Positions 4,930 to 50,445 of a DNA stretch of 64,000 nucleotides are shown in pieces. The position numbers and the translations under genes are program-made. Positions within the stretch are counted from its first letter, which is position 1, and each line of letters starts with the position of its first letter. This DNA comes from an uncultured Planctomycetales bacterium (GTDB lineage Bacteria; Omnitrophota; Gorgyraeia; Zapsychrales; Fredricksoniimonadaceae), in NCBI GenBank assembly GCA_964520655.1, contig CAZFNI010000007.1, positions 6,398 to 70,397 of the forward strand, given 5' to 3'. Under the pieces are notes generated by a model, which was given only the letters and a program-made list of their open reading frames with translations, did not search any database and was not told where the DNA came from.

Positions 4930-6756
4930 GTGCAGAATAAAAGCATGTCCGTGCGCAGAAAAGATGTCCTCATTGACGGCTTTTTCCTGTCGATCTTCCT
5001 TCTAATCTTCGTATCCTTCACCTGGGGCAAATGGATCCATCCGATCGTTGATTTCGGCCGAGAGGTTTATATCCCCTGGGCGATCGATCAGGGGGCCGTT
5101 CTCTACAAAGACCTGGCATTTCTTTTCGGTGCCTTGCCTCCTTACTGGAATGCTCTGCTATTTAAGATCTTTGGCGCGTCTTTGCAGACGATCCATGTTG
5201 TGGATGTGTTGGTAGTTTTTCTTTGCGCCGCATTGATCTATCGTTTTTTCTACTGCACCATGAACCGCTTGACAGCCTTCATGGTCACCCTCTCTTTTCT
5301 TATCCTGTTTGTCATGGATTTTTATTATTATGAATCCAATATGGCGTTTTTATCGCCATTCACGCACAGTTATTTTTACGCGTTCCTTTTTGTATTAGCG
5401 GCGGTCAATATCTGGCAATGTTTTCTCATGCGTCCAAGCAGGGCCTGGATATTTTTTTTAGGGATTTGCGTCGGCGGGGTTGTTGTATCACGGCTGGAGA
5501 TCGCGGCAGCATTCTTCGTGGCATTGTTGATCGGGTTTGCCTTTTATCTCCAGCGGTTAAAACCAGGATCACGGCAAACGCTGTATTATATGGGGTGTTT
5601 TATCGGGGGATTATTGACCCCGATCGCTTTGTTCTGGGCGTATTTCTTAATGTATTTACCGCCCTTACCCGCGTTTCTTTCCATCATTGGGTATAATCCT
5701 CAATGGCGTGAGGTAGGGGATCTGTATTTTTATCAATTCTTGGGAGGGTGGAACAACTGGGAGTTAAATGTGCTCTGGATGATCCGCAATTTGCTGGTTT
5801 ATGCGGCGCTGTATGCTTCATTTCATCTGATGCTGATCGCTCGTTTAAGCTTCAGTAAGAAAGAATGGCTGAAAGGTGTTTTCTCCTTCGCGATCTTTTG
5901 TATGGTCTACGGTGGGGTCGCGTTCTATATCAGTGATATATATGCCCGGGGTGTGTTTCGAGGCGCGATCCCGGTAGTGGCGGCGTTGATCGGGATCAGC
6001 CTGTTCAATATTTGCCAGAACAAAGAATGTGCCTGCCGCGACAGGCATTTGTCAATTGTGGTTTTGGCTGTCTTCGCGTTCTTGCTGATGTTCAAGGTCC
6101 CATTACAGTTGACCTTGCAGGACTATGCGCTGATCTACGGGATGTTTGGGGTGTTGATGTTCGTTGCCGGATGTGTGTATTATCTGCCGGAAAGATATCA
6201 ACAGTATCCAGGCGGGAGGAATTGGGTTGCGTTATTAGTTTGCGCGCTGCTGGTGCTGGTCATGGTGCGCGTCGGGATCGTTTCATGGGGAGGGTTATCC
6301 AGCAAGAAAACACTGGTTGGGAGAGGGGAAAATGTGCTATGGACGTTTGATAGTCCCGCGCCTTTTGGTTCCGGCGGCAGCGTGAAAAGTTTTCTGGACT
6401 GGTCCCGGGAACACTTTGCCCCTGAAGATACGTTTGTTGTTTTGCCGGAAGGAATAATGCTCAACTTTTTGACGGGGCATCGGATCACCGGCCGGCATGT
6501 CACATATATGCCGGCGGAAGTAACGACTTTTGGTGAAGCCAGCATGCTTCAAGAACTAAAAATGTCCCCGCCGGATTATGTGGTGGTTGTCGTCAAGCAG
6601 ACAAATGCCTATGGAGGACTGGACCTGGGCGTGAATTATTTAAATGATGTGTATAGATGGGTAAAGGATAACTATACCGTAGTATGGAGGTCGGGGAGCA
6701 AGAAGAAAGATAGTTTCCTGATGTCAGTGTATCAGAAAAAAGAGCGGAAGAGGTAG
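4930..6756 (+). CDS. Family A-1: polytopic membrane protein, putative GT-C-fold glycosyltransferase (ArnT/PMT-like first-loop motif), with a ~150-aa conserved C-terminal non-membrane domain.
   Basis: 608 aa with many hydrophobic helices. GKWIHPIVDFGREVYIPWAIDQGAVLYKDLAFLFGALPPYWNALLFKIFG resembles ArnT DE-x-RYAE ... YFEKP ... YW. C-terminal motif VVLPEGIMLNFLTGHRITGRHVTYMPAE is shared with the three paralogs. Confidence 0.75.
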   Translation: MQNKSMSVRRKDVLIDGFFLSIFLLIFVSFTWGKWIHPIVDFGREVYIPWAIDQGAVLYKDLAFLFGALPPYWNALLFKIFGASLQTIHVVDVLVVFLCAALIYRFFYCTMNRLTAFMVTLSFLILFVMDFYYYESNMAFLSPFTHSYFYAFLFVLAAVNIWQCFLMRPSRAWIFFLGICVGGVVVSRLEIAAAFFVALLIGFAFYLQRLKPGSRQTLYYMGCFIGGLLTPIALFWAYFLMYLPPLPAFLSIIGYNPQWREVGDLYFYQFLGGWNNWELNVLWMIRNLLVYAALYASFHLMLIARLSFSKKEWLKGVFSFAIFCMVYGGVAFYISDIYARGVFRGAIPVVAALIGISLFNICQNKECACRDRHLSIVVLAVFAFLLMFKVPLQLTLQDYALIYGMFGVLMFVAGCVYYLPERYQQYPGGRNWVALLVCALLVLVMVRVGIVSWGGLSSKKTLVGRGENVLWTFDSPAPFGSGGSVKSFLDWSREHFAPEDTFVVLPEGIMLNFLTGHRITGRHVTYMPAEVTTFGEASMLQELKMSPPDYVVVVVKQTNAYGGLDLGVNYLNDVYRWVKDNYTVVWRSGSKKKDSFLMSVYQKKERKR

Positions 6757-6760
6757 GCCC

Positions 6761-8566
6761 ATGTCGCCGCGAAAAACAGGATTGTTGTGGGATGCCGCGG
6801 TCCTTTTGACCGTAGCCGTTGTGTTTATCATATTGACTGGCGGAAAGTGGACCCATCCGGTCAATGATTTTGGCCGGGAAGTCTACATCCCCTGGGCGAT
6901 CGATCAGGGGGCGGTCCTTTATAAAGACCTGGCTTATCTTTTTGGTGCTTTGCCGCCCTGCTTAAATGCGCTGCTGTTTAAATTCTTTGGAGCTTCCTTA
7001 CAGACGATCCAACAATTTGATCTTTTGGTCGTCGCCCTGATGACCGCGTTGATCTACCGATTTTTCTATCTTGTCTGGTGCCGGTTATCCGCATTAGCTG
7101 CTGCGGCATCATTTTTAGTTCTTTTTGCTTTTGATTATCTGCCGTTTGGTTCAAACATGTATTATTTAAGCCCCTATTCTCACAGTTATTTCTATGCTGG
7201 ATTGTTTACCCTCGCGATCTTTAACACACTGGAGAAGTATTTTAAGGATCAGCGTAAGCGCTGGCTTTTATTGACAGGGGTTCTTTTAGGTGCGGCATTG
7301 TTGTCCCGTCTGGAGTTATTTATCATCATATTCATCGCATCGATGTTCGGGCTGGTGATCGATGCCTGTGCCAAGAACATGGCGCTGCGGGAAAGGTTCC
7401 GGAACTGGATGCTGGTGTTGGCGGGGGTTACGATCGCGGTCCTGCCGTTTTTGATATATTTCTCGATGCATATGCCCGTGTCAAAAGCGTTAATGTCGAT
7501 CGTCGGGTTTAATCCACAGTGGCAGCAGGTGTCTGGCATCTATTTGTATAGAAATCTGGCCGGGCTTATCCATGTTCCGATGAACCTGCAGATGTTGGGC
7601 ATCGTTCTGGGAGCATACGCGGCGTTGTATTTAGGATTGAACGCGCTTGGTCAGGCGTTTTTGCTGCGGCGCGCGGGGAGGGATCATTTTCAGGTATTTG
7701 TTCTGGGGGCGTATTTCTTTACGGTTTATGGGGCTGTGCTGTATGCGGTCAATCACGGCTGGGCGCATGAGATCTTTCGTGGAGCGGCCGTTTGTGTGAT
7801 CTTAGCCGGTATTCTGGCGTATAGAAAAATGCGTCAAGCGCAGGATGCGGATAGCCGCACCAGGGCGCTGCTGATGCTGATGTTCTGTCTTTTTGCCGGG
7901 CTGATGCTGTTTAAAGTGCCGCTGTCGATGAAATTATTCAATTACGCGCTTTTTTACGGCATGCCCGCGGGGCTTGTCACAGTTATCGTCTGGGTCAAGG
8001 TGGTCCCGCAGATCATGCAGGAACGCTATAAGTCGGGCGCTGTCAGTCAGCTGTTTGTCTTATTCTTGCTTGTCAGCGTCGGAATCCAGGTGTTTGGCGC
8101 GTCCATCCATGGGCTTGGGGCGAGACAAAAGAAAGTCGGTCTGGGTCCCAATGCGCTGTGGGCGTTGGACAGGACTTCACCGTGGGGCGCGGGTGATGAT
8201 GTGGATCTATTCCTGAAATGGGCCAAAGAAAATCTTAAGGCCGGCGAGCGCTTCGTGGTCCTGCCGGAAGGCATCATGCTGAACTTTTTAACGGGGCATA
8301 AGATCTCCGGCAGGCATTTAACGTTTATGCCGGCGGAGATGGTCACCTTTGGCGAGAAAAGCATGTTGGGGGCATTGACGGAAGATCCGCCGGAATACAT
8401 GGTGCTTGTCCATAAAAGCAATGCTGAATACGGAGGGATCGTCCTGGGGCAGAATTATGCGCTTGAGATAGTCGGTTGGTTGAAAGAACATTATCAGCGG
8501 GTATGGATCTCCCGGGAAAAAAGGCCGGGGAATTTTTCAATTGAGGTCTATCAACGAAGATCATGA
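6761..8566 (+). CDS. Family A-2 paralog (601 aa), putative GT-C membrane glycosyltransferase.
   Basis: Same N-terminal (GKWTHPVNDFGREVYIPWAIDQGAVLYKDLAYLFGALPP) and C-terminal (VVLPEGIMLNFLTGHKISGRHLTFMPAE) motifs as A-1. Confidence 0.75.
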   Translation: MSPRKTGLLWDAAVLLTVAVVFIILTGGKWTHPVNDFGREVYIPWAIDQGAVLYKDLAYLFGALPPCLNALLFKFFGASLQTIQQFDLLVVALMTALIYRFFYLVWCRLSALAAAASFLVLFAFDYLPFGSNMYYLSPYSHSYFYAGLFTLAIFNTLEKYFKDQRKRWLLLTGVLLGAALLSRLELFIIIFIASMFGLVIDACAKNMALRERFRNWMLVLAGVTIAVLPFLIYFSMHMPVSKALMSIVGFNPQWQQVSGIYLYRNLAGLIHVPMNLQMLGIVLGAYAALYLGLNALGQAFLLRRAGRDHFQVFVLGAYFFTVYGAVLYAVNHGWAHEIFRGAAVCVILAGILAYRKMRQAQDADSRTRALLMLMFCLFAGLMLFKVPLSMKLFNYALFYGMPAGLVTVIVWVKVVPQIMQERYKSGAVSQLFVLFLLVSVGIQVFGASIHGLGARQKKVGLGPNALWALDRTSPWGAGDDVDLFLKWAKENLKAGERFVVLPEGIMLNFLTGHKISGRHLTFMPAEMVTFGEKSMLGALTEDPPEYMVLVHKSNAEYGGIVLGQNYALEIVGWLKEHYQRVWISREKRPGNFSIEVYQRRS

Positions 8567-8575
8567 TAAAACGTA

Positions 8576-10387
8576 ATGGATAAGAATAAACGGGACATAG
8601 CCCTGGATGCGGCATTTATTCTGATGGTCTTGGGTGGATTTGTGGCCGTGACCTGGGGCCGGTGGGCTCATCCGATCATTGATTACGGCCGCGAGGTGTA
8701 TGTCCCCTGGCGTATCACCGCGGGGGAGGTCTTATATAAGGACCTGGCTTATCTGTTCGGTGCTTTTCCGCCCTATTGGAATGCGCTGCTTTTTAAAGTG
8801 TTCGGCCCATCGATCGCCACCTTGACGGGATTCAACACCCTCCTGGCCCTGGCGGATGTGTTCTTGGTGTACCGGTTCCTGCTTCTGTCCGCCGATCGCT
8901 TGACCGCGCTTTTGGGCGCGGCTGGTTTTTTATTGCTGGCGGTCTGCAATCTGCACATGGCCTACAATATGTATTATTTGGCCCCCTATTCGCATAATGC
9001 CGCGTATGCGGTCTTTTTTGTTTTGTGCGCGTTAAATGTGCTGCCGTCGTTGTTGCGGATATTGGAGCACAGGGCATTCTTTTTATTGGGGCTTTTTCTC
9101 GCTGGAGCGTTGTTATCGAGGCTGGAAATATTCCTGGCCGCGGCGCTGGCGATCTTTACGGCTTTAGGGTTGTATTTTTGGAAATATTCAGTACAAAAAA
9201 ATAAAGCGTTCGCTTATATCGGCACGGCGGTGGCAGGCATTTTCTTTCCGGTATTTGTGTTCTGGGTGTATTTTGTGGCACACTTGCCGCCCTTAGAAGC
9301 ACTTTTTTCTATTATAGGCTATAACCCTCAGTGGCGAGAGGTGGCCCAAACAACACTGTATGCCAAGCAATATGCGGCGTGGCGGGAGAATGTCACGCTG
9401 ATGGCCATGGCGTTGGGAGGCAGCATGTTATTGATCGTCGGCATTGAGATATGCTGCCGGGGCATGATGTTATGGCAAAAGAGCAAAGAGCGGTTGAAAG
9501 CACTGTTGATGTGCGGTCTTTCTGTGTTGTTATATACAGGGGTTCTATATGTTTGCACGGGTGAGAATGTGTATGATGTGTTTCGGGGGCAGATCATCCT
9601 TCAGATCGTATTGGTCGTTTTTTGTTATAAAAGATTCCAGTCTTCCACTGGATTGGAAGATAATATCAGAACATTGTGCCTTTGGGTGTTGTGTGCCTGG
9701 GGGCTTTTCATGCTGGGGAAGATCCCCTTAAAATGTGTTGTCCGGGGCAGCGGCTTGATCTACGGGATCCCGGCGATGCTGACAGCGGTCGTTCTTTTCG
9801 CGTATCTTCTGCCGCAGCGGGCGCAAAGGCTTTACGGCCAGGGGCGTATTGCGGCAATAGCGGCAGCGCTGCTGCTGACATTTTTGTTCTGTCGGGTGTT
9901 GGCGTCTTCGTTGAATAACTTGTCGCTGCGTTTGAAGGCTGTCGGTCAGGGAGCCAATGCATTGCGGACCATTGATTACCCATTGCCATTCGGGCTTGGG
10001 ACCGACATTGAGAAATTCCTTTCTTGGTCGCGGGATCATTTGGGGAACAATGACACCTATGTTGTCCTGCCCGAGGGGGTCATGCTCAATTTCCTGACCC
10101 GTCACCGGATAACGGGCCAGCACATCACCTTTATGCCGGCGGAACTGGCAACGTTCACGGAAGAACGTATGCTGGCAGGGTTGAAGGATGTTCCGCCTGA
10201 TTATGTGGTCATTGTGAATAAGGATAATACGGCTTACGGGGATATGGTTTTTGGGAAGAATTACGCGCCGCGTCTTTATCAGTGGGTCATGACGCGGTAT
10301 TCGCCGGTCTGGGATTCCAGGGTTATCCCCAACCGGTATGCAGGCATAACGGTCTTCAAACGTCAGGAAATACAGGGGCATGAATAG
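8576..10387 (+). CDS. Family A-3 paralog (603 aa), putative GT-C membrane glycosyltransferase.
   Basis: GRWAHPIIDYGREVYVPW ... YKDLAYLFGAFPPYWNALLFKVFG. C-terminal VVLPEGVMLNFLTRHRITGQHITFMPAE. Confidence 0.75.
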   Translation: MDKNKRDIALDAAFILMVLGGFVAVTWGRWAHPIIDYGREVYVPWRITAGEVLYKDLAYLFGAFPPYWNALLFKVFGPSIATLTGFNTLLALADVFLVYRFLLLSADRLTALLGAAGFLLLAVCNLHMAYNMYYLAPYSHNAAYAVFFVLCALNVLPSLLRILEHRAFFLLGLFLAGALLSRLEIFLAAALAIFTALGLYFWKYSVQKNKAFAYIGTAVAGIFFPVFVFWVYFVAHLPPLEALFSIIGYNPQWREVAQTTLYAKQYAAWRENVTLMAMALGGSMLLIVGIEICCRGMMLWQKSKERLKALLMCGLSVLLYTGVLYVCTGENVYDVFRGQIILQIVLVVFCYKRFQSSTGLEDNIRTLCLWVLCAWGLFMLGKIPLKCVVRGSGLIYGIPAMLTAVVLFAYLLPQRAQRLYGQGRIAAIAAALLLTFLFCRVLASSLNNLSLRLKAVGQGANALRTIDYPLPFGLGTDIEKFLSWSRDHLGNNDTYVVLPEGVMLNFLTRHRITGQHITFMPAELATFTEERMLAGLKDVPPDYVVIVNKDNTAYGDMVFGKNYAPRLYQWVMTRYSPVWDSRVIPNRYAGITVFKRQEIQGHE

Positions 10388-12743
10388 GAATTTAGTCACC
10401 GTCGGTGTCATTTCGTTTTCGGCCATCTTGTTCCAGATATGCGTCACGCGCATTCTGGCGGTGACCCTGTGGTATCATTTTGCTTTTCTGGTGATCTCGC
10501 TTTCGATGCTGGGGATGACGGCAGCCGCGATCGCCTGTTTTGTTTTTTGGCCGCGTGTCATAGAAACACAAAGCCGGCGGTATTTTATTATTTTTGCAGC
10601 CCTGTTCGCCTTGCTTGCGCCATTATCCGTTGCTGTTCATTTAAATATCAATTTTCAGGAAGTGGCGTTCAACACGGCCGGATTTTATGCGATCGCGATG
10701 CTCCAGCTGGTGTTTTTGGCGGCGGCGTTCTTCGCCGCAGGGATGGCGTTAAATATCATTTTGTTCAAAGAACAGGAACGGATCGGATTTGTCTATTTCT
10801 GTGATCTGATCGGCGCCGCGGCGGCAAGCCTTCTGGTCATGGCGCTGTTATATTGGGTCAGCCCTATCGCTGTTGTGTTTCTCATTTCATTTTTGTCCTT
10901 ATGGGCAGCCTATGTGCAGGCATCGCATCAGGGCTTACGCCTGGCGCTGCTTTTATCAGCGGGAGTGATGCTGGTATTATTCATCAACAATGACGCGTGG
11001 CATATCTTTAAGATCAGGGCCGTGAAAAGTTATGGGGAGAAAGCGTTCCAGGTGGAGGACAAACCTCTTTTGTTCGAGAAATGGTCGCCGTTCGCGCGTA
11101 CGACGGTGTACAGCCCGACCCGCCATGACAGCGGGACATTATCCATTGAGAATAATTCCGGCGCACCGGCGGCAATGTTCAAATATGACCCGATGCTTCC
11201 GCCAACCCAGCTGAGGACCAGGCTTTACGGTCTTCAGGAAATGGCTTTTGTCCTCAAGAAGAGCGATGAAGCCTTGATCATCGGCTCAGGCGGAGGGAGG
11301 AATTTGCTGGCAGCGTTGCTCTCGGGTCAGGGCCATATCACGGCGGTTGAGGTCAATCCGGTGACTGCGGAGATCGTTACAAAGGATTTTTCGGATTATA
11401 TCGGCCGCATCTTTGAGGATTCCCGCGTTACTTTTCATGTGCAGGAGGGGAGGAATTTCATTGCCCGTACCCAACAGTTGTACGATGTGATCAATATCTC
11501 CATGGTTGAGAGCTGGGGGAATCAGGCCGCGGCCAGCAATTCGTATATTTTTACCGAGAACACCTTGTACACCAGAGAAGCGGTCTGGGATTATGTGCGT
11601 CATTTAAACCCGCAGGGGATACTGAGCATCACCCGGTATGATGATTTTGATGAAGGCTTGCGTTTAGTGAACACGATGATCGACACGCTGCAGGAGAGAG
11701 GGGAAAAAGACCTTAAGGACCAGTTCGTCGTTGTGTTGGGCTACAAGTATCGGGGATCGGTGGGGCTAGCCAATGTCATGTACAAACGCGGCGGATTCAC
11801 CAGGGAAGATGTGGCCAGGATCAGGGATTTTACATCCCGTAACGGTTTTAAGATCATTTACGCGCCGTTCTTGCCGGAGGCAGCAATGAGCGCGCTTCCC
11901 CGGTCGGAATTTTACCGCAAGCTTATCCTCGGGAAAGACAGGAGGGATGATCTGGTGGCGCGGTATCCCCGGATCATCAGCCCATCCACGGACGACAAAC
12001 CATTTTTTTTCTACATGGACCGATTTAAGGATTCATTTGTGTTCAATGCCAATGAACATGCGGCCCGAAGACGCGCTATCCCGATATTGTATGGATTGTG
12101 TGCGGGGGTAGCGGTGCTTAGCCTGATCATGGTCTTTCTGCCGTTGTTAGTTTACCGCCGTACACGTTTAAGCACGCTGTTGCAATGCCGGGTGAATTTG
12201 CTTTATTTTGCAGCGCTGGGAACGGGGTTTATGTTCATTGAGTTATCCCTGATACAGCGACTGACTGTTTTTCTGGGGCATCCCATTTACGCCTTGATCG
12301 TGGTGTTGACCGCCTTGCTGTTAAGCAGCGCTATGGGGAGCTTCTTCTCAGGAAGGATCAAGCCTCTAATGAAAGAGAAGGTGCTTAAGGTTGTGCTGCT
12401 GGCGATCGCCCTCTGTGGCGTTCTTGTGGGGGGAATTATGTTCGATCACCTGGCGCGCTGGATGTATTTACAGCAGCCGCTGCGTGTCATCGTTGCTGTC
12501 GCGACCATCGTTCCTTTGGGGGCTATGCTGGGGATGTGTTTCCCGCTGGGTGTTCATTTGCTGCAGGAGAAGGACAGGCAGCTGATCGTATGGGCGTGGG
12601 GTATCAACGGGATATTTTCTGTCTTAGGATCGGTGCTGGCCATGGTGCTGGCACTGCATATGGGATTTAAAGCCGTGTTCTTGATCGGAGCGGCATGTTA
12701 TTGCGGGGCATGGTTGGCGGTCAAACGCATGGGGAATCAATGA
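10380..12743 (+). CDS. Spermidine-synthase-like (aminopropyl/methyl-transferase fold) domain flanked by N- and C-terminal multi-TM domains (787 aa).
   Basis: The central segment IIGSGGGRNLLAALLSGQGHITAVEVNPVTAEIV ... DVINISMVESWGNQAAASNSYIFTENTLYTREAV matches the spermine/spermidine synthase fold. Hydrophobic N- and C-terminal regions are consistent with the known fused spermidine-synthase-like membrane proteins. Confidence 0.65.
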   Translation: MNRNLVTVGVISFSAILFQICVTRILAVTLWYHFAFLVISLSMLGMTAAAIACFVFWPRVIETQSRRYFIIFAALFALLAPLSVAVHLNINFQEVAFNTAGFYAIAMLQLVFLAAAFFAAGMALNIILFKEQERIGFVYFCDLIGAAAASLLVMALLYWVSPIAVVFLISFLSLWAAYVQASHQGLRLALLLSAGVMLVLFINNDAWHIFKIRAVKSYGEKAFQVEDKPLLFEKWSPFARTTVYSPTRHDSGTLSIENNSGAPAAMFKYDPMLPPTQLRTRLYGLQEMAFVLKKSDEALIIGSGGGRNLLAALLSGQGHITAVEVNPVTAEIVTKDFSDYIGRIFEDSRVTFHVQEGRNFIARTQQLYDVINISMVESWGNQAAASNSYIFTENTLYTREAVWDYVRHLNPQGILSITRYDDFDEGLRLVNTMIDTLQERGEKDLKDQFVVVLGYKYRGSVGLANVMYKRGGFTREDVARIRDFTSRNGFKIIYAPFLPEAAMSALPRSEFYRKLILGKDRRDDLVARYPRIISPSTDDKPFFFYMDRFKDSFVFNANEHAARRRAIPILYGLCAGVAVLSLIMVFLPLLVYRRTRLSTLLQCRVNLLYFAALGTGFMFIELSLIQRLTVFLGHPIYALIVVLTALLLSSAMGSFFSGRIKPLMKEKVLKVVLLAIALCGVLVGGIMFDHLARWMYLQQPLRVIVAVATIVPLGAMLGMCFPLGVHLLQEKDRQLIVWAWGINGIFSVLGSVLAMVLALHMGFKAVFLIGAACYCGAWLAVKRMGNQ

Positions 12744-17505: not shown

Positions 17506-17515
17506 TTTGGCTGAT

Positions 17516-19788: not shown

Positions 19789-19867
19789 GCCATCGCGAAA
19801 GAGTGTTGCCATGGCCTTGTGTTGTCTGCTAGTATGGGGGCCTGTAATTACCCACTAAAGATATATC

Positions 19868-23196: not shown

Positions 23197-23240
23197 AGAA
23201 AAATTCAAGCAAATTTTTTGAGAATAGGTATAATGCCCCT

Positions 23241-24662: not shown

Positions 24663-24675
24663 GCCGGAGGTTGTG

Positions 24676-25452: not shown

Positions 25453-25459
25453 TCTTCCT

Positions 25460-27410: not shown

Positions 27411-27752
27411 ATGGAAAAGATCATTCTGGGAATAGTCCAAACGATATTGTGCCCGCAATTCGCGGCTGATGCTAACCATCATCACGTGACGCATACGGCG
27501 GAAGTGCTTTACCGCAAGATCATGGCCATGCCGTTGTTGCTGCGTCTGGCCATGTCCGTGCTGTTATATGTTTTTAACGGATACGGGGTTTTGCTGGGCG
27601 GACATTTGTTTGAGAACCATGTCCCCCAAAACAAAGCTAAACAGTTAAGCCAATGGCAGAACAGCCCGATCGCCCCTTGCCGTGAAGCAATGTCTTTTTT
27701 TTATAAAATGACTTTTTTTATTTATTTCTCCTTATGCCCAAAGATCGATTAA
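27411..27752 (+). CDS. Hypothetical small membrane protein (~113 aa). The ORF-track start at 27396 is TTG.
   Basis: One hydrophobic helix MAMPLLLRLAMSVLLYVFNGYGVLLGG. Its end overlaps the GMC oxidoreductase start by 19 nt. No recognisable domain. Confidence 0.3.
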   Translation: MEKIILGIVQTILCPQFAADANHHHVTHTAEVLYRKIMAMPLLLRLAMSVLLYVFNGYGVLLGGHLFENHVPQNKAKQLSQWQNSPIAPCREAMSFFYKMTFFIYFSLCPKID

Positions 27753-44860: not shown

Positions 44861-45323
44861 ATCTTTTGATGTCTTTGATCCGGTCTTTACCGGTTTATTA
44901 GCTGCCGCGGCGATCCTGTGCGCGATGGAAATGCTCATTATCGCCGGTGTTGTTTTGTTCTATATCCCCTTTACGCCTGACCCATCCCTGCAGGATATAT
45001 TCTTCCATTACCGCAAAGGATATGTTCCCGAGCAGGAATTATTATTGTACGGCGTTGGGATCGCGATGGCGGTGGTCTTCTTTGTCGGCGCTGCGATCGT
45101 TTTTGCGCGGCGCGTTTCGGATGTTTTGTTTCAAAGGTCATTGATACGTTATGCGGTGGTGCATACGGCCGTTGTGATTTCGATGACGGCATGTGTTTTT
45201 AAATTGATCGTCACACCGTCGGATGGCATCGCGTGGGCATGTCTTTATACAATGTTGGGCGTTTCTTTGGGACTTAACATATTTTGGAGCGAGATCGATC
45301 AATGGTTTGGGCGGACCTTTTAG
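44850..45323 (+). CDS. Family C-4, N-terminal fragment (157 aa, 4 TM), ending just after the family's FW-x-EI motif.
   Basis: ...NIFWSEIDQWFGRTF* aligns with FWPELRK, FFPELNN and IFWAEIVRFW of the paralogs. Either a split gene or an independent short ORF. Confidence 0.5.
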   Translation: MKNKSFDVFDPVFTGLLAAAAILCAMEMLIIAGVVLFYIPFTPDPSLQDIFFHYRKGYVPEQELLLYGVGIAMAVVFFVGAAIVFARRVSDVLFQRSLIRYAVVHTAVVISMTACVFKLIVTPSDGIAWACLYTMLGVSLGLNIFWSEIDQWFGRTF

Positions 45324-47068
45324 CGGTTCTCGGGATCTTTCTGGTGCTGTTCATCCCTGACCCGTCGTCGACGGTGGCGCAGCTGTTCTTGGGCGACTAT
45401 TTCCATGACTGGGATGTGGTCTTCATGGGGCCGGTCTACGGATTGTTCTGCGATCTTGTTCCCAACATCGATGTCAATACGACCTATGGGTTTGGATTAA
45501 GTCTGCTCATCAAGTGGGGGATGCAGCTTTTGGGCGGATTTGATTATACGCATGCGCTTGTCGTATTAGTCTGGCTGGGAATTATTTATTTTGTCGCCTG
45601 GTATTTTTTGCTGCGCCGGCTGTTTGAGCATCGGCTGCTGGCCTTTATCGCCATTTTGCTTGGCATGCGTTTTCAGATGTTTGTTTCGATCCTGATCCCC
45701 ATCGTCTGGAACGATATCCAATGCTCAGTGCTGCGTTTTTATTTTGACGCGGCCTTTTTCTGGAGTTTATACCTGCATCAGAACAAAGGTGGTCAGCGTT
45801 ATCTTTGGCTCATGGGGTTATCTGCGGCGCTGGGGATCTTCCATATGCCGACCATGGGGATATTTTTAGCGATGACCATGGTCGTTTATCTGGCCTTCTT
45901 GACCCTTGATGGATATTTTAAGGAAGGGATGAAATCCTTGGGCTCAGCGGCCTCCAATGCCCGGCCTTTGATCTTTATCCCGGTCGTCGTCTTCATCTTG
46001 TATTATGCCATTGTTAGGGACCATATTTTCACCGGAACATTCTGGGCCAACACCGCCGGATTCGCGTCCTATTTTGCTAAAGGATTTTTCTATAGCCCGA
46101 TGCTTGACCCGCTTAAACGGGGCAATTATCTGATGGTCATCGGCGGGATCTTGATCCCGCTGTGGTATCTGTTCTGCCTGTTCTTTTTCGGCTGGCGCTA
46201 TCTTACCCCTGCCAGAAGATCCAGGGATATATGGATCGTTCTGCTGTCCGTGTATGGTCTGGGGATATTCACGTATTTTGTCGGGATGTCCCATAAATAT
46301 TCGACGGTGTCTCTGCCGGCGACATTTGTTTCCTTTCTTGTCCTTGATGAGATCTTGGCCCGCGCCTCGCGGCACTGGAAATTCCGGATCACGTGGACTT
46401 TGCTTGCGGTGAGTATTTATGCTCTTGCGGTCGAGCCTATGTTCAAGGCCTACCCCAACTGGCTTAATATTTCCCGCGATCCGGTCGTTGACGAGCGCGT
46501 GACCATGAAAACTCCCAATGGAAAACCGTATTTTCAGCAGCTGGCCATCGATTTCCCAGAGTGGATCAAGGTCCCCTTCAATTCGCTGGGGGAGACGGAT
46601 GAGAAGTTCAAATATGAGAAAGATTTCGTCAACAGCGACGCGTTAAAGTCCTATTACCGTCTGGAGACCGCGTTTGTCGAGGACGCGGGCTTGATCCGTC
46701 GTTTGACCAGCCCCGGCGACAGGGTGGCCTTATTATCCAGTTTTGAGGTGATGATCCTTTCTAAAGCACAGCGTAAACCACTGTTCTATTATTTCCCATT
46801 GCTTAATTCCCATCCCATGCGCATGCGAAATTTCGTGGTCACGACCATATTTAGCTACCCGCAATTGCGCCAGAGCATTGACCAGTTAAACGCGGCCATG
46901 CCGCCCTATATTTTTATGGAGAAGGTGTTCTTGACGGAGCAGGTCCACCCCTGGTATTTTGAACAATTCGAGGATTTGATCGCGCTGATCCGCTGGATCA
47001 AATATTATTATACGCCGGTCGAACAGGGCAAATACTTGGTGGCCATGAAAAGGAAGACCGATGGTTGA
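45302..47068 (+). CDS. Family C-4, C-terminal fragment (ATG at 45302, -1 frame relative to the upstream fragment; the ORF track shows a TTG start at 45284).
   Basis: FLGDYFHDWD, YGLGIFTYF, AYPNWLNISRDP, LSSFEVMILSKAQRKPLFYYFP ... YIFMEKVFL ... GKYLVAMKRK. Confidence 0.6.
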   Translation: MVWADLLAVLGIFLVLFIPDPSSTVAQLFLGDYFHDWDVVFMGPVYGLFCDLVPNIDVNTTYGFGLSLLIKWGMQLLGGFDYTHALVVLVWLGIIYFVAWYFLLRRLFEHRLLAFIAILLGMRFQMFVSILIPIVWNDIQCSVLRFYFDAAFFWSLYLHQNKGGQRYLWLMGLSAALGIFHMPTMGIFLAMTMVVYLAFLTLDGYFKEGMKSLGSAASNARPLIFIPVVVFILYYAIVRDHIFTGTFWANTAGFASYFAKGFFYSPMLDPLKRGNYLMVIGGILIPLWYLFCLFFFGWRYLTPARRSRDIWIVLLSVYGLGIFTYFVGMSHKYSTVSLPATFVSFLVLDEILARASRHWKFRITWTLLAVSIYALAVEPMFKAYPNWLNISRDPVVDERVTMKTPNGKPYFQQLAIDFPEWIKVPFNSLGETDEKFKYEKDFVNSDALKSYYRLETAFVEDAGLIRRLTSPGDRVALLSSFEVMILSKAQRKPLFYYFPLLNSHPMRMRNFVVTTIFSYPQLRQSIDQLNAAMPPYIFMEKVFLTEQVHPWYFEQFEDLIALIRWIKYYYTPVEQGKYLVAMKRKTDG

Positions 47069-48308
47069 ACGAAAGATCATCAGCATCATTACAGCCTTGG
47101 TACTCGTCGAGTCCTTGCAGGCGCTTGCGTTGATCGCGCATATTTATAGTTTTATCCCCATCTCCCTCAAAGGCCCGATCCTGCCAGGGCTTGAGCCGGA
47201 AAGGGAGAGTTTTCTCTACATCATTTTCCTGGCCATGGTTTTTGTGCTGACGATCGTGCTGACGGCGCTGTTATATAAGCCGCTTAAGTCCGCTGCTTTT
47301 CAACAGAGAGCATTGAAGTTCGTATATTTGGAAACGCTCTGGATGGGACTGATGCTGTTTGCCTTCTTTAAATGGGTAAGCTACCAGCATCCTTTCTATA
47401 ATATTCTGCCGCTGGAGAACGGACGATGGGTATATCCGTTCTTTTACGCAGTTGCCTTTTTAAGCTTTTTGACAAAGATATTCTGGGCGGAGATCGTCAG
47501 GTTTTGGGAGAGCTGGGAACAGGGGCGGGGCCGCAGACTGGTGACAAAAGAAAAACCATTGGCTGTTTATGCCGCCGGGATAATGTTTGCGGCCGCATTG
47601 TTGTACCCCAATGTGCCGCTTGCCTCGCAGGTCATTGCCTCCTGGAGCCGTTTTGCGCCATGGCAGAATTTCTGGCTGACGCGTTTTTTTCTTGAACGGG
47701 GATTCTCTCCTGAGGCGATCATTGCGTGTTTATACGGTCTTAATATGATCGTCCTGGGCGTGATCTTTGTCGGAGCGCATCGCTACTTGAAGAATTCCTG
47801 GCTGGCCTTTGGTGTCCTCATGCTGACGATCCAAATGACGTTTTTCCATTACGGCACATCACCGGTGTGCTGGAATGCTCCGCAGAATACGCTCATCAAT
47901 TTCGGCTGGGACTTTGGCTTTATGAAAGACGCCGCGCATTTGCCCATGTTCGCTGCCTTGCGTGTGCGCCAGTTTCTTTCATTCTTTATGGGATATGCCA
48001 TCGCGGTGTTGTATGTCTTCTCTATATTATATTGCTGGGGCAAAGATAGAATGGCGGTGATCTTAAGTGGCCTTGGCTTACTCTTATATACCCGCTATAT
48101 CGCCCATGCCGATGTATTTGCTTTTGGGGCGGCATCCTTCCCGGCAATGATCTTGTCTGCGCACTGGTTGAGAATTGTAATAAGGCGATTTTTTCCCAAA
48201 CAGGAAAATGCTGTTTATATCGCGCTTGCCGCAACGTCAGTTTTCATGCTGTTAACCAACCGGGTATTTGTGACCTACCCGCATTTTTGGATGAACAATG
48301 TTCCATAA
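47061..48308 (+). CDS. Family C-5: truncated paralog (415 aa). Membrane domain only, ending at the YP-x-[FW]-x-N boundary motif and lacking the C-terminal soluble domain.
   Basis: IFWAEIVRFW and LMLTIQMTFFHYGTSPVCWNAP (compare LVCFRLQMFHYGVSPLCWIYP in C-6). Ends ...TYPHFWMNNVP*. Confidence 0.55.
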   Translation: MVERKIISIITALVLVESLQALALIAHIYSFIPISLKGPILPGLEPERESFLYIIFLAMVFVLTIVLTALLYKPLKSAAFQQRALKFVYLETLWMGLMLFAFFKWVSYQHPFYNILPLENGRWVYPFFYAVAFLSFLTKIFWAEIVRFWESWEQGRGRRLVTKEKPLAVYAAGIMFAAALLYPNVPLASQVIASWSRFAPWQNFWLTRFFLERGFSPEAIIACLYGLNMIVLGVIFVGAHRYLKNSWLAFGVLMLTIQMTFFHYGTSPVCWNAPQNTLINFGWDFGFMKDAAHLPMFAALRVRQFLSFFMGYAIAVLYVFSILYCWGKDRMAVILSGLGLLLYTRYIAHADVFAFGAASFPAMILSAHWLRIVIRRFFPKQENAVYIALAATSVFMLLTNRVFVTYPHFWMNNVP

Positions 48309-50445
48309 AGAAGATCTTAAGATCAGCGTATTGAGTATCTGCAGCGCGATGCAAGTGGCCGTGCTCGTGGCCCAGGCACTGTCAGCGTTGAATGCGGCCT
48401 CTGGGGTTTATGACGGCATTGTCTATGTCGCTTTTTTGGTCAGTAGTGTCTTTGTGTTCGCTCTGTTAAAAAAGCAGCGGGACTTAGCTTGGAATGTGTG
48501 GATGGAAATGCTGGTGACGTTTCTGTTGCTAAGCGCTGTCTTTAAAAGCACCATCTATGACAATAGTCCGTTTCTGGCCAATGCCGCTGTGCTTTCGCTG
48601 CTTACGATCGCGGCTGCGATAAAAGTATTCTCGCTTGAGATATCGTCGGGATTGTTAAGGCTATCCGCGAAAGCGCGTGTAATGTCGTCATTTGGGCCGA
48701 TCGCTTCCTGTGCCGCCATCGCCGCATTGGTCTATGTGCCCAATCTAAATGCGGTGCTGGCGGAGGTCTTTATCGGCGAGCAGGCGCATCATTTGGACTT
48801 TTTTGTGATGTCTCCGGGATGGTCATGTTTTAACGGCGGTAAGCCCTACGTGGATGTGATCTCTCAATACGGGGTGGGCATACCGGTTATTTTTGCTAAC
48901 TTAAGCCGCATTCTTGGCGGGTTTGATTATTTGACCTTCCTTCAGGTGAACATGGCTTTCGGTATCTTGTATTTTATATTGTTCTTTTGGGTGACGCGCG
49001 CATGGCTTGGCAGCACGATGCTTGGGTTTGCCGCATTCCTGGTGTGTTTTCGTCTGCAAATGTTCCATTACGGGGTCAGCCCCCTGTGCTGGATCTATCC
49101 ATCCTCAACACCTATCCGTTTTGGGCTGGACATCCTCTGGTTGTGGCTGTTGTGGCGCCATCTGCAGACCGGCAGGGGGATCTTTCTGATCTTAGCCGCT
49201 TTGTACAGCGGGTTTGCTGTTTATTTCATGACATCGACGGGTATTTTTATCATGGTCACGTTCTACGCATATTTAGCAGGGCTGCTGGTACTGCAAGGAC
49301 TCCGCAAAGAAAAAATATTATCGCCCAGGCTTATGGCAGCGGCTGCTATCATCCCCGTGGTATCGGCCTTTGTATTCTTTTGGATCACCCTGGGTGGACA
49401 TGTTGTCAGTCAAACGTTCTGGCGGAATGTCGTCGAGTATATGTCATATTTCTCCAACGGACGCGGCGCTTTGCCTATCTTTGAAAGTTTGAAATACCGC
49501 AACTATTGGGTCGCGCTGATGGCTCTGGCTGTTCCTTTATTGTATGTGGCGACCGCCGTCAGCGTCGGGATCGCGTTATGGAAAGAAAAAGTCGATCGCA
49601 AATATTTGTTTGTTGTCACGATCGCGGTCTATGGGTTGGTCAATTATCAATATTTCGTTGTGCGTTCGGCGATGACCAGTTATTACAGCAATGCGGTGCC
49701 TTTCGTGCTACTGTGCGCGTTCTGGGCTGACATTGCCGTCAAACATTACATGCCGGCGAAAAAGGGGAAGATCTACGGACTGTGCGCCATTCTGGCCTTC
49801 TATGCACTGGCCACCAATCACAATTACATCAGCTATCCCAATCTGTTCAATTTCAGCCGTAACCCTTTGGTTGACATCACCGTGGCCCAGCGTTTCCCTG
49901 ACCGGCAGGGCTATTTCCATCATTTGGTCAAACATATCAAGGAAGAGGATAAGGTCGCCTTTAATGCGGCGGGCGACGGGGACGAGCATTTGATGACGGA
50001 GGATAGCTTTAAGACGGATAAGGAGTTGATCGATTTTGTTAAAAGCGAGAATGATTTCAGCCTCGATGCCGCGCTGATCGATTCTCTTGTGTCTTCCAAA
50101 GAACCCACGGCGGTCTTAAGCAGTTTTGAAACGAAGATCCTGATCCAGGCCAAGCGGGCGCCGTTCTTTTACCATACACCGCTTATCACCTCCCAGCCGA
50201 TGCGGGTGCGCTACTTTCCGGCGGATGCCGCGCACAGTCCAAGTTTTTTGGCAGACACACTGCGCCAGCTGGAGGATAAGAAACCGGCTTATGTATTTAT
50301 CGAGAATGTCTTTTTGCAGGAGATCATTCCGGCAAGCTACAGGGAGTCAAACGCAAATATATTGACAATCATCGCCTATATCAGGCAGAATTATACCCCT
50401 TTTAAGAGGGGACAGTATTTGACAGCAATGAAGAGACATGAATAA
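48298..50445 (+). CDS. Family C-6 paralog (715 aa), last gene of the long array.
   Basis: FIGEQAHHLDFF, YGLVNYQYF, SYPNLFNFSRNP, LSSFETKILIQAKRAPFFYHTP ... YVFIENVFL ... GQYLTAMKRH. Confidence 0.7.
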   Translation: MFHKEDLKISVLSICSAMQVAVLVAQALSALNAASGVYDGIVYVAFLVSSVFVFALLKKQRDLAWNVWMEMLVTFLLLSAVFKSTIYDNSPFLANAAVLSLLTIAAAIKVFSLEISSGLLRLSAKARVMSSFGPIASCAAIAALVYVPNLNAVLAEVFIGEQAHHLDFFVMSPGWSCFNGGKPYVDVISQYGVGIPVIFANLSRILGGFDYLTFLQVNMAFGILYFILFFWVTRAWLGSTMLGFAAFLVCFRLQMFHYGVSPLCWIYPSSTPIRFGLDILWLWLLWRHLQTGRGIFLILAALYSGFAVYFMTSTGIFIMVTFYAYLAGLLVLQGLRKEKILSPRLMAAAAIIPVVSAFVFFWITLGGHVVSQTFWRNVVEYMSYFSNGRGALPIFESLKYRNYWVALMALAVPLLYVATAVSVGIALWKEKVDRKYLFVVTIAVYGLVNYQYFVVRSAMTSYYSNAVPFVLLCAFWADIAVKHYMPAKKGKIYGLCAILAFYALATNHNYISYPNLFNFSRNPLVDITVAQRFPDRQGYFHHLVKHIKEEDKVAFNAAGDGDEHLMTEDSFKTDKELIDFVKSENDFSLDAALIDSLVSSKEPTAVLSSFETKILIQAKRAPFFYHTPLITSQPMRVRYFPADAAHSPSFLADTLRQLEDKKPAYVFIENVFLQEIIPASYRESNANILTIIAYIRQNYTPFKRGQYLTAMKRHE

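What the first reader, a model, noticed from the sequence alone, without database searches (positions are those of the whole stretch)
4930..50445. A 45-kb co-directional array with at least 15 paralogous large polytopic membrane-protein genes from three families
From 4930 to 50445 every gene is on the + strand. Most neighbouring genes overlap by 4-29 nt at their start/stop (ATGA-type), with a few short gaps where the accessory genes sit. The array encodes 4 Family-A (ArnT/PMT-like, putative GT-C), 5 YfhO-like and 6 Family-C proteins of 415-865 aa each. A spermidine-synthase-like membrane protein, an LtaS-like enzyme, an SGNH hydrolase, several oxidoreductases, an AsnB amidotransferase, an FkbM methyltransferase and a GT2-methyltransferase fusion are interspersed. 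Paralogs are only about 35-50% identical, so these are old duplications that have since diversified. A battery of this size is far beyond the one or two YfhO/ArnT-type enzymes of a typical glycopolymer-decoration locus. It suggests a combinatorial set of lipid-linked-sugar-dependent transferases with different acceptor or donor specificities.
Basis: partly seen in the sequence, partly recalled or inferred. Interest (0 to 1): 0.85.

Follow-up and report, generated by a model that had tools for sequence, protein, structure and literature searches.

The report
Fifteen-gene GT-C glycosyltransferase array in Omnitrophota
A 45-kb run of tightly packed genes in an uncultured Omnitrophota bacterium encodes about fifteen old, individually conserved copies of membrane enzymes that attach lipid-carried sugars outside the cell membrane; that is many times more than known bacterial systems of this type, and one of the enzyme families has no curated model.

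The parts
1..361 (-). 5' part of a further Family A-like GT-C gene (518 aa in the sister contig), transcribed divergently from the array
   Evidence: Sister contig L001:3861-5417(-) maps to the window up to position 361. hhalign against the Family A profile gives prob 98.9%, E 1e-17 over the full length. Pfam PMT_2 scores 24.4 bits, just under the cutoff.
533..2980 (+). g00: secreted or anchored Cys-rich (11%), Ser/Thr/Gly-rich repeat protein with a thrombospondin-type-1-repeat-like domain (WTVWSGCSPACG...R.C). Candidate acceptor protein.
   Evidence: Composition and sequence; tandem repeats. The profile of this segment hits thrombospondin-1 TSRs in the PDB at E 1.5e-8.
3181..4887 (+). g01: paralog of g00 (50% identical over the N-terminal 250 aa), Cys-rich (13%) with a TSR-like domain (WSGWGACVPSTCG...R.C)
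4945..6756 (+). Family A GT-C glycosyltransferase, copy 1 (13 TM helices plus a ~150-aa periplasmic C-terminal domain; loop-1 motif HPIVDFGRE)
6761..8566 (+). Family A GT-C, copy 2
   Evidence: 43% identical to copy 1; motif conserved
8576..10387 (+). Family A GT-C, copy 3
   Evidence: 37-44% identical to the other copies; motif conserved
10380..12743 (+). 15-TM membrane protein with a central spermidine-synthase-like (SAM-dependent transferase fold) domain
   Evidence: Pfam PF01564, 23.6 bits against a cutoff of 22.9; NCBIfam speE-type matches are weak; TM scan
12740..14566 (+). Family A GT-C, copy 4
   Evidence: 38-44% identical to the other copies; start taken from the sister gene call
14571..16529 (+). 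LtaS/OpgB/EptA-type membrane-anchored sulfatase-fold phosphotransferase
   Evidence: Pfam Sulfatase, E 1e-32; N-terminal TM helices; weak LtaS and EptB NCBIfam matches
16504..17505 (+). Membrane-anchored putative SGNH/GDSL esterase (weak call)
   Evidence: NCBIfam GDSL match at E 5e-6 over 64 residues; PDB CE2 and GDSL matches at E 0.3
17507..19570 (+). Distant YfhO-type protein (11 TM). Only its C-terminal ~85 aa match YfhO.
   Evidence: Pfam YfhO, 40.2 bits, residues 584-666. hhalign to the other four matches 63 columns only.
19868..20719 (+). FkbM-family methyltransferase
   Evidence: Pfam PF05050; TIGR01444, 60.8 bits against a cutoff of 37.7
20713..23196 (+). YfhO-like GT-C candidate, copy 1
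   Evidence: Pfam YfhO, 40 bits; 30-33% identical to 31113 and 35905
23241..24662 (+). FAD-dependent oxidoreductase (PRK07208 type, UDP-galactopyranose-mutase-like N-terminus)
24676..25452 (+). Short-chain dehydrogenase/reductase
25460..27340 (+). AsnB-type glutamine amidotransferase, closest to the EPS-associated XrtA/PEP-CTERM type
   Evidence: Pfam; TIGR03108 at 543 bits, below its cutoff of 817
27411..27752 (+). Conserved small gene (113 aa) that precedes the GMC oxidoreductase
   Evidence: 55% identical to the gene at the same position in L012 and L013
27734..29065 (+). GMC-family FAD oxidoreductase
   Evidence: ortholog 77% identical in L012
29062..31116 (+). Family C GT-C, copy 1
   Evidence: ortholog 59% identical
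31113..33701 (+). YfhO-like, copy 2
   Evidence: Pfam, 31.6 bits; ortholog 52% identical
33664..35904 (+). Family C GT-C, copy 2
   Evidence: ortholog 60% identical
35905..38502 (+). YfhO-like, copy 3
   Evidence: Pfam, 46 bits. There are 17 orthologs at 48-98% identity; 16 carry PF09586.
38499..39902 (+). Class I SAM methyltransferase with an N-terminal domain of uncertain type (the GT2 signal is weak)
39895..42372 (+). Family C GT-C, copy 3
   Evidence: ortholog 55% identical
42359..44860 (+). YfhO-like, copy 4 (most divergent of the four; absent from the L012 genome)
   Evidence: Pfam, 32.3 bits
44850..45323 (+). Free-standing 4-TM N-terminal module of a Family C protein (split gene, part 1)
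   Evidence: Matches residues 25-158 of 29062-31116. The split is conserved in L003/L012, in a different reading frame. dN/dS is 0.29.
45302..47068 (+). Family C GT-C core plus C-terminal domain (split gene, part 2), copy 4
   Evidence: ortholog 74% identical; dN/dS 0.04
47061..48308 (+). Truncated Family C paralog (415 aa). It lacks both conserved loop-1 aspartates and the C-terminal domain, so it is probably non-catalytic.
   Evidence: Alignment. Conserved upstream of the 48298-type gene in five other loci. dN/dS is 0.23.
48298..50445 (+). Family C GT-C, copy 5 (the most widely conserved member; this is the protein that was modelled)
50876..51598 (-). GT2 (GT-A fold) enzyme resembling polyprenyl-phosphate sugar synthases. 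Candidate maker of the lipid-linked donor.
   Evidence: Pfam GT2, E 1e-21. Best NCBIfam matches are PgfS, PpgS, AglJ, ArnC and Dol-P-hexose transferase, all far below their equivalog cutoffs. The same gene sits at the same place in L012 and L017.

Best explanation
The array is a phylum-conserved envelope glycosylation locus of an Omnitrophota bacterium. It encodes an extracytoplasmic, multi-step glycan assembly or decoration line built almost entirely from GT-C-fold enzymes.

Inferred sequence of events:
1. A GT2 enzyme (50876-51598) loads a sugar onto polyprenyl phosphate at the cytoplasmic face.
2. Oxidoreductases, the AsnB amidotransferase and the methyltransferases tailor the sugar or the product.
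3. The lipid-linked sugar is flipped across the membrane. No flippase was identified.
4. On the periplasmic face, each of about 14 catalytic GT-C paralogs uses the conserved aspartate in its first periplasmic loop to transfer sugar to its own acceptor position. These are 4 Family A, 5 Family C and 4-5 YfhO-type proteins. The acceptor is recognised by each protein's own periplasmic domain.
5. An LtaS-type phosphotransferase and a putative SGNH esterase add or remove non-sugar substituents.

Shown here: the gene layout, the paralogy, the GT-C fold of Families A and C, the A-C homology, Pfam membership of the YfhO group, orthology and purifying selection.

Inferred: the donor type, the topology of catalysis, one specificity per paralog, and the nature of the product. 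The product could be a complex envelope glycopolymer or a glycan on secreted proteins.
For: GT-C fold of Family A and of Family C.

A-C homology extends to the shared C-terminal periplasmic domain.

The loop-1 motif is conserved: D-[FY]-G-R-E in all 4 Family A proteins, H-x-D in 5 Family C proteins, and G-V-x-L-[FWY]-D in all 5 YfhO-like proteins.

The YfhO Pfam gathering threshold is passed. NCBIfam matches to PgfM1 and PgfM2 were seen for the two YfhO-like genes scanned.

The adjacent GT2 is most similar to the polyprenyl-phosphate sugar synthases PgfS, PpgS, AglJ and ArnC, and its position is conserved.

One-to-one orthologs are 45-77% identical, against 22-35% between paralogs, and gene order is the same in a second genome. 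Other Omnitrophota MAGs carry 2-5 Family C genes, some with YfhO-like paralogs, in tandem beside the same housekeeping block.

dN/dS is 0.04-0.29 for every GT-C gene covered by the sister contig.

Known three-component systems pair a GT-A enzyme, a flippase and a YfhO- or PMT_2-type GT-C (PMC8035078).

From established knowledge: the mycobacterial Emb/Aft/Mpt/PimE enzymes and the ER enzymes ALG3/9/12/6/8/10 show that series of GT-C enzymes build complex glycans stepwise.
Against: No donor, acceptor or product is identified.

Only one polyprenyl-phosphate sugar synthase candidate is present for about 14 transferases. It is on the opposite strand and far below every NCBIfam equivalog cutoff.

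No GtrA- or Wzx-type flippase was recognised in the window.

The transmembrane domain of the YfhO-like proteins was not modelled and is not matched by the Pfam profile; only the C-terminal 55-85 residues match.

The window's own Family A sequences do not reach Pfam PMT_2, even at E 0.01.

Confidence: 0.6

Rival explanations
1. Dedicated protein glycosylation. The battery glycosylates secreted cysteine-rich, Ser/Thr-rich proteins that carry thrombospondin-type-1-like repeats. The two encoded immediately upstream (533-2980, 3181-4887) are candidates, and so may be the large surface proteins of this phylum. The chemistry would be O-mannosylation-like (PMT or Pgf type) and possibly DPY19-like tryptophan C-glycosylation at the WxxW motif.
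Against: Pfam TSP_1 does not detect g00 or g01, even at E 10. Per-domain E values are only 0.004-0.03. Scores across different GT-C enzymes are too close to single out PMT or DPY19. The position of the TSR-like gene is not conserved between the two genomes. The LtaS-type, AsnB (EPS-type) and SGNH genes fit a glycopolymer better. Fifteen transferases for two small domains is hard to justify.
Confidence: 0.2
2. Decoration of an existing envelope lipid or polymer for charge and permeability control: ArnT/EptA-like modification of lipid A or LPS core, or OpgB-like modification of periplasmic glucans. On this reading the locus modifies a structure rather than building a new glycan.
Against: Known lipid A modification needs one ArnT and one EptA, not 15 paralogs that are each conserved. 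No arnA/B/C/D-type genes are present. The GT2 is only weakly ArnC-like, at 37 bits against a cutoff of 529.
Confidence: 0.1
3. A variable surface-antigen cassette. The paralogs would be alternative, interchangeable transferases that are switched or exchanged between strains to vary the surface glycan. This is the 'combinatorial' reading.
For: Against the sister strain, nucleotide identity is 100% over 501-5000 and drops abruptly to 90-96% inside the array, in a mosaic pattern. One paralog (42359-44860) and the block 23241-27340 are missing from the related genome. The sister strain has a 31-nt deletion in 31113-33701.
Against: Orthologs are one-to-one and in the same order across genomes about 60% identical. 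dN/dS is 0.04-0.29. DNA repeats between paralogs are only 63-89% identical and short. There are no invertible repeats, recombinases or tRNA genes. The mosaic could be a metagenome-assembly consensus effect.
Confidence: 0.05
4. The proteins keep the GT-C fold but are not glycosyltransferases. They would act as scaffolds, lipid carriers or recyclers, or transporters.
For: The non-catalytic GT-C-fold proteins PIG-U and GAB1 appear among the hits. One paralog lacks the acidic motif. There is no biochemical evidence of any kind.
Against: The loop-1 aspartate and neighbouring motif are invariant in 14 of 15 paralogs and in the family alignments. A donor-synthase-like GT2 is conserved next to the array.
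Confidence: 0.05

Closest known systems
Three-component (GT-A / flippase / GT-C) extracytoplasmic glycosylation systems of Gram-positive bacteria: CsbB-GtcA-YfhO, GtlA-GtlB, Csd of Lactococcus, Pgf of Streptococcus mutans
   Same: They use YfhO-type and PMT_2-type GT-C enzymes together with a polyprenyl-phosphate sugar synthase of GT2 type. Transfer occurs outside the membrane. An LtaS-type enzyme is encoded in the same locus.
   Different: Known organisms have 1-3 such GT-A/GT-C pairs, usually scattered and one GT-A per GT-C (PMC8035078). Here about 15 GT-C genes sit in one array with a single recognisable GT-A and no recognisable GtrA flippase. The host is a member of the PVC-related phylum Omnitrophota, not a Firmicute.
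Mycobacterial arabinogalactan/LAM GT-C set (EmbA/B/C tandem paralogs, AftA-D, MptA/B, PimE) with DprE1/DprE2
   Same: Many GT-C paralogs, partly in tandem, each make one linkage of a complex envelope glycan from polyprenyl-phosphate sugars. A flavoenzyme plus SDR pair lies in the neighbourhood. AftA, AftB, AftD, PimE and EmbA are structural matches.
   Different: There is no sequence-level relationship to the Emb or Aft families. The flavoenzymes here are amine-oxidase-like (UGM-like) and GMC type, not VAO-type like DprE1. All the genes are in one 45-kb array. No role for the oxidoreductases has been shown.
PMT_2 / GT39 / GT83 (ArnT, bacterial and eukaryotic protein O-mannosyltransferases)
   Different: The window's sequences do not reach the Pfam PMT_2 threshold. 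The C-terminal domain is a distinct ~150-aa alpha/beta domain (motif PPDY...EYG) shared only with Family C and two upstream genes. It has no MIR domain.
DPY19 tryptophan C-mannosyltransferases acting on thrombospondin type 1 repeats
   Same: GT-C fold. CeDPY19 is the best Foldseek hit of Family C (E 5.7e-5). TSR-like domains with WxxW are encoded next to the array.

Membership tests
GT-C fold glycosyltransferase superfamily (Family A) | Polytopic membrane domain with the conserved GT-C helix arrangement | tested here: met
GT-C fold glycosyltransferase superfamily (Family A) | Conserved acidic residue(s) in the first extracytoplasmic loop | tested here: met
   D41 is invariant, and R44/E45 are at least 90% conserved, across 33 sequences. 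D-[FY]-G-R-E is present in all four paralogs right after TM1. The periplasmic location is inferred from the positive-inside N-terminus.
GT-C fold glycosyltransferase superfamily (Family C) | GT-C helix arrangement | tested here: met
GT-C fold glycosyltransferase superfamily (Family C) | Conserved acidic residue in loop 1 | tested here: met
   D167 is invariant in 38 sequences. It is present in five paralogs and absent from the truncated 47061-48308.
GT-C superfamily (all) | Uses a polyprenyl-phosphate- or -diphosphate-linked sugar donor | not testable with these tools
   Only indirect: a GT2 resembling polyprenyl-phosphate sugar synthases is adjacent, and its position is conserved.
Pfam PMT_2 (PF13231) / CAZy GT39-GT83 | Score at or above the Pfam gathering threshold | tested here: not met
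   No Pfam family at E <= 0.01 for any of the four Family A proteins. However, 14 of 40 homologues carry PF13231, and the upstream divergent gene scores 24.4 bits against 26.1.
Pfam YfhO (PF09586) | Whole-protein score at or above the gathering threshold (28.5 bits) | tested here: met
   Scores are 40.2, 40.0, 31.6, 46.0 and 32.3 bits. 16 of the 17 homologues of 35905-38502 carry PF09586.
Pfam YfhO (PF09586) | Match along the transmembrane (catalytic) part of the 835-position profile | tested here: not met
   Only profile positions ~750-835 (the C-terminal 55-85 residues) match. 17507-19570 relates to the other four over only 63 columns.
Three-component extracytoplasmic glycosylation system | GT-A polyprenyl-phosphate sugar synthase encoded with the GT-C | tested here: inconclusive
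   The GT2 at 50876-51598 has PgfS (71 bits against a cutoff of 500) and PpgS, AglJ and ArnC as its best matches, all far below the equivalog cutoffs.
Three-component extracytoplasmic glycosylation system | GtrA- or Wzx-type flippase | tested here: not met
   No GtrA or Wzx family hit in any Pfam scan of the array genes. The 4-TM N-terminal modules of Family C give no Pfam hit at E <= 10.
Thrombospondin type 1 repeat (g00, g01) | WxxW...CSxxCG...R.C cysteine pattern detectable by profile | tested here: inconclusive
   A 3-sequence profile against the PDB gives thrombospondin-1 at E 1.5e-8 to 4.8e-7, followed by about 35 further TSR proteins. Pfam TSP_1 finds nothing at E <= 10, and single-sequence phmmer gives E 0.8-2.
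DPY19 C-mannosyltransferase | Specific similarity to DPY19 above other GT-C families | tested here: not met
LtaS / phosphoglycerol- or phosphoethanolamine-transferase | N-terminal multi-TM domain plus an extracytoplasmic sulfatase-fold domain | tested here: met
   Pfam Sulfatase, E 1e-32, residues 251-550; 6-7 N-terminal TM segments. The specific subtype is unresolved.

The most novel reading that the evidence does not exclude
The array, or part of it, is a bacterial machine for heavy glycosylation of secreted thrombospondin-type-1-repeat-like, cysteine-rich proteins. That glycosylation would include DPY19-like C-glycosylation of the WxxW tryptophans. It would be the first prokaryotic counterpart of the eukaryotic TSR C-/O-glycosylation pathway, in a phylum of ultra-small, host-associated bacteria.
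Probability: 0.07. Interest if true: 0.9.

Novelty: new variant of a known kind. Interest (0 to 1): 0.62.

Why it matters
GT-C enzymes build or decorate cell-envelope glycans outside the membrane. Characterised bacterial loci contain one to three of them. Here at least 15 sit in one tight array (17 with the two divergent upstream genes), each with its own conserved ortholog. This implies that Omnitrophota make an unusually elaborate periplasmic or surface glycan, or glycoprotein, by a route dominated by lipid-linked sugar donors. The closest parallels are mycobacterial arabinogalactan/LAM synthesis and the lumenal ER steps, rather than ordinary Gram-negative polysaccharide synthesis.

Omnitrophota are uncultured, ultra-small and often host-attached, so their surface chemistry is probably central to their lifestyle, and it is unknown.

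The analysis also defines a GT-C family with no Pfam or NCBIfam model (Family C). It has about 430 representative clusters at E <= 1e-30. Every member whose source names an organism is from Omnitrophota or from MAGs labelled 'uncultured Planctomycetales'. It further defines a shared C-terminal periplasmic domain, and it flags bacterial TSR-like proteins as candidate substrates.

Tried and rejected
- Direct sequence and profile searches of Families A, C and YfhO-like against PDB sequences found nothing useful. The fold comparison was what settled the question.
- hhalign of the YfhO-like group against A and against C gave no relationship. The YfhO group therefore stays separate at sequence level.
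- The first genome scan with the broad Family C alignment failed for lack of conserved words. It was repeated with the ortholog-only alignment.
- The afdb50 fold library was unavailable.
- Promoter and terminator scans gave counts at or modestly above shuffled expectation (terminator-like hits up to about 3 sd above it), and the hits lie almost entirely inside coding sequence. They say nothing reliable about a single transcript.
- Rfam and tRNA searches were empty, so there is no sign of a mobile element or riboswitch.
- The repeat search found only conserved-motif echoes between paralogs, no long near-identical repeats and no convincing inverted repeats. This rejects a shufflon or recent gene-conversion cassette.
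- I tested whether the extra 4-TM N-terminal module of Family C is a fused GtrA-type flippase. There is no Pfam signal, so the idea is left open and not adopted.
- I considered reading the FAD oxidoreductase plus SDR pair as a DprE1/DprE2-like epimerase of a lipid-linked sugar. No family evidence supports this, so I do not claim it.
- I considered the 44850/45302 split to be a frameshift or sequencing error. I rejected that because the split, in different frames, is conserved in a ~60% identical genome and both parts are under purifying selection.
- A literature search found no description of such arrays in Omnitrophota.

Full report
**Layout**

The window carries a continuous run of + strand genes from 533 to 50847. 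I set start codons by position relative to the upstream stop and by the gene calls on a 96% identical sister contig, GCA_041910255.1 JAYRRC010000016.1.

From 4945 to 50445 there are 26 genes. Fifteen of the 25 junctions overlap by 4-38 nt and seven have gaps of 0-13 nt. Only three are larger, at 44, about 70 and 297 nt. The apparent 393-nt gap after the AsnB gene holds a conserved 113-aa gene (27411-27752).

Co-directionality itself is not special to the array. All but one of the about 40 supported genes in the window are on the + strand, and GC skew is positive throughout. There are no tRNA genes, Rfam families, long repeats or recombinases.

**Paralogy**

All-against-all BLASTP gives three groups.

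- Family A: 4945, 6761, 8576 and 12740. These are 37-44% identical over their full length.
- YfhO-like: 20713, 31113, 35905 and 42359. These are 22-33% identical over their full length. The gene at 17507 joins them only through its last ~60-90 residues.
- Family C: 29062, 33664, 39895, 45302 and 48298. These are 26-35% identical. There is also a 415-aa truncated copy at 47061 and a 157-aa gene at 44850.

The 157-aa gene matches the N-terminal four helices of the full-length members. Together with 45302-47068 it makes one split Family C protein.

All of these proteins are polytopic. Its 35-50% identity range holds only for Family A.

**What the families are**

None of the Family A or Family C proteins hits Pfam or NCBIfam, or PDB sequences, even as profiles.

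Of the 40 database homologues of Family A, 14 carry PF13231 (PMT_2) and several are named GT39- or ArnT-like.

|---|---|---|---|

The Family A model has 13 TM helices, two short helices in the first periplasmic loop, and a ~150-aa C-terminal alpha/beta domain.

Profile-profile comparison shows that Family C is a distant homologue of Family A: prob 96.6%, E 5e-10, 506 columns. The match includes the C-terminal domain. Family C has four extra N-terminal TM helices. An even number of extra helices keeps the topology of the core unchanged.

The motif in the first loop is conserved in every copy except one:

- Family A has H-P-[IV]-x-D-[FY]-G-R-E.
- Family C has H-x-D, followed by a second Asp about 20 residues later.
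- The truncated 47061-48308 lacks both aspartates and the C-terminal domain.

A profile search of 1.84 billion representative proteins finds 1504 Family C relatives at E <= 1e-3, of which 429 are at E <= 1e-30. Ten diverse members have no Pfam domain. Every member or locus whose source names an organism is called Candidatus Omnitrophota or 'uncultured Planctomycetales'. Family C is therefore a GT-C family without a curated model.

The five YfhO-like proteins pass the Pfam YfhO gathering score, but only through the last 55-85 residues. They show no profile similarity to A or C. They share an invariant G-V-x-L-[FWY]-D motif after TM1. Their architecture is about 11 TM helices, a large extracytoplasmic domain and a final TM helix.

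**More members upstream**

On the sister contig, two divergently transcribed genes lie just upstream of the secreted-protein genes.

- A 518-aa protein is homologous to Family A along its whole length (prob 98.9%). Its first 361 nt are the start of this window.
- A 543-aa protein shares the C-terminal domain (prob 98.6%).

The locus therefore holds at least 17 proteins of this kind.

**Accessory genes**

| Gene | Assignment |
|---|---|
| 10380-12743 | 15-TM protein with a spermidine-synthase-like domain, barely above the cutoff |
| 14571-16529 | LtaS/EptA-type sulfatase-fold membrane enzyme |
| 16504-17505 | Weak SGNH candidate |
| 19868-20719 | FkbM methyltransferase |
| 23241-24662 | FAD oxidoreductase |
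| 24676-25452 | SDR |
| 25460-27340 | AsnB amidotransferase, closest to the PEP-CTERM/EPS type |
| 27734-29065 | GMC oxidoreductase |
| 38499-39902 | SAM methyltransferase; the N-terminal 'GT2' signal is below threshold |

Just past the array, on the opposite strand, is a 240-aa GT2. Its best NCBIfam matches are the polyprenyl-phosphate sugar synthases PgfS, PpgS, AglJ and ArnC, all far below their equivalog cutoffs. The same gene occupies the same place in two other genomes. No GtrA- or Wzx-type flippase was recognised.

**Conservation**

Loci fetched with the Family C ortholog profile all come from MAGs titled Candidatus Omnitrophota or 'uncultured Planctomycetales'.

In GCA_964572155.1 the order is the same as here:

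- YfhO
- 113-aa gene
- GMC
- C
- YfhO
- C
- YfhO
- methyltransferase
- C
- 154-aa module
- 588-aa core
- 413-aa truncated copy
- C
- tRNA-binding protein
- GT2 (-)

One-to-one identities to this window are 45-77%, against 22-35% between paralogs. That genome lacks 42359-44860 and the FAD/SDR/AsnB block.

More distant genomes carry 2-5 tandem Family C genes, some together with YfhO-like genes, and in four of them the same downstream housekeeping genes follow. In two of them the split gene is a single 716-738-aa ORF. The duplications are therefore old, and the split is lineage-specific and maintained.

Against the sister strain, dN/dS is 0.04-0.29 for every GT-C gene covered by the sister contig, including the split and truncated ones. 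These are working genes.

**Interpretation**

Three lines of evidence combine here: the fold assignments, the conserved catalytic-loop motif, and a neighbouring donor-synthase-like GT2. The known logic of three-component systems (PMC8035078) and of the multi-GT-C pathways in mycobacteria and the ER (from established knowledge) points the same way.

The best explanation is an extracytoplasmic, multi-step glycan assembly or decoration line in which each paralog makes one linkage. A fixed, conserved set and order argues for sequential or parallel defined steps rather than a combinatorial or switchable repertoire.

The acceptor is unknown. Two candidates stand out:

- an envelope glycopolymer, which fits the LtaS-type, EPS-type AsnB, SGNH and methyltransferase genes;
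- secreted proteins.

**The secreted proteins upstream**

The two genes immediately upstream (533-2980 and 3181-4887) encode signal-anchored proteins with 11-13% Cys. Both are Gly-rich and Thr-rich, and g00 is also Ser-rich. They have tandem Cys repeats.

They contain a segment (WTVWSGCSPACG...R.C and WSGWGACVPSTCG...R.C) that, as a three-sequence profile, retrieves almost exclusively thrombospondin type 1 repeats from the PDB. Thrombospondin-1 scores E 1.5e-8, followed by F-spondin, CSP, TRAP, properdin, C6/C9 and UNC5. Pfam TSP_1 does not detect it.

A homologue with GGWGPWTGC lies about 6 kb downstream of the array in the related genome.

In eukaryotes, TSRs are the classic substrates of DPY19, a GT-C enzyme. 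That makes a protein-glycosylation reading attractive, but so far it rests on adjacency alone.

**Strain variation**

Identity to the sister strain is 100% over 501-5000. It falls abruptly to 90-96% from the first GT-C gene onward, in a mosaic pattern, and returns to 98-100% downstream. This could reflect recombination or elevated diversity at a surface-glycan locus, or a consensus effect of metagenome assembly.

**Verdict**

The GT-C interpretation is supported for two families by structure and for the third by Pfam membership.

The size, tightness and phylum-wide conservation of the array go well beyond anything described for bacterial GT-C systems in the literature I could search. Family C and the shared C-terminal domain are also undescribed.

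The enzymology is of a known kind, so I rate this a new variant of a known kind, with interest 0.62.

Noticed in passing
window 533-2980 and 3181-4887; L003:18264-19511: Cys-rich secreted proteins with a thrombospondin-type-1-repeat-like domain (WxxW...C..CG...R.C). A 3-sequence profile hits thrombospondin-1 TSRs in the PDB at E 1.5e-8, and the rest of the hit list is almost entirely TSR proteins. Pfam TSP_1 does not detect them. These look like bacterial TSR-like domains next to a GT-C battery.
   Followed up: partly
window 501-5000 compared with 5001-50445 (sister contig L001/L016/L017): Nucleotide identity to the sister strain GCA_041910255.1 is 100% over the two secreted-protein genes. It drops abruptly to 90-96%, in a mosaic pattern, exactly where the GT-C array begins, and recovers to 98-100% downstream. 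This could be recombination or high diversity at the locus, or an assembly consensus effect.
   Followed up: partly
window 31165-31195: The sister strain has a 31-nt deletion near the 5' end of the YfhO-like gene 31113-33701. The gene is called there as a shorter, 751-aa product with no Pfam hit. This may be strain-specific inactivation or N-terminal truncation of one paralog.
   Followed up: partly
window 44850-45323 / 45302-47068; L012:16360-18578; L010:5874-8090; L005:7597-9747: One Family C gene is split into a 4-TM module and a GT-C core, encoded in different frames. The split is conserved in a ~60% identical genome, but more distant genomes have a single ORF at that position.
   Followed up: yes
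window 47061-48308: A truncated Family C paralog without the acidic loop motif or the C-terminal domain is conserved directly upstream of the 48298-type gene in five other loci. It may be a non-catalytic partner subunit.
   Followed up: partly
window 27411-27752: A conserved 113-aa gene overlaps the start of the GMC oxidoreductase gene. It has no family assignment and may be a small subunit of the oxidoreductase.
   Followed up: partly
L001:1192-1968 (-), upstream of the window in the sister contig: A PEP-CTERM-motif protein is encoded about 4 kb upstream. The AsnB in the array is closest to the XrtA/PEP-CTERM-system amidotransferase. This hints at a link to exosortase-type EPS or protein sorting.
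   Followed up: no
window 56005-57462: A 485-aa membrane protein with an HTTM (vitamin-K-dependent gamma-carboxylase-like) domain. In the related genome L003, the TSR-like Cys-rich protein gene occupies the corresponding position.
   Followed up: no
window 51668-53006: A CxxCxxCC zinc/iron-chelating-domain protein is followed by a protein with the C-terminal domain of phosphatidylglycerol lysyltransferase (LPG_synthase_C) but no membrane part. The pair is conserved downstream of the array in four other Omnitrophota loci.
   Followed up: no
L014:2532-7482: In another genome (GCA_964438075.1), a 17507-type protein (26% identical), a TPR protein and a single Family A-like gene (27%) are adjacent. 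The distant YfhO-type and Family A types may therefore work together outside the large array.
   Followed up: no
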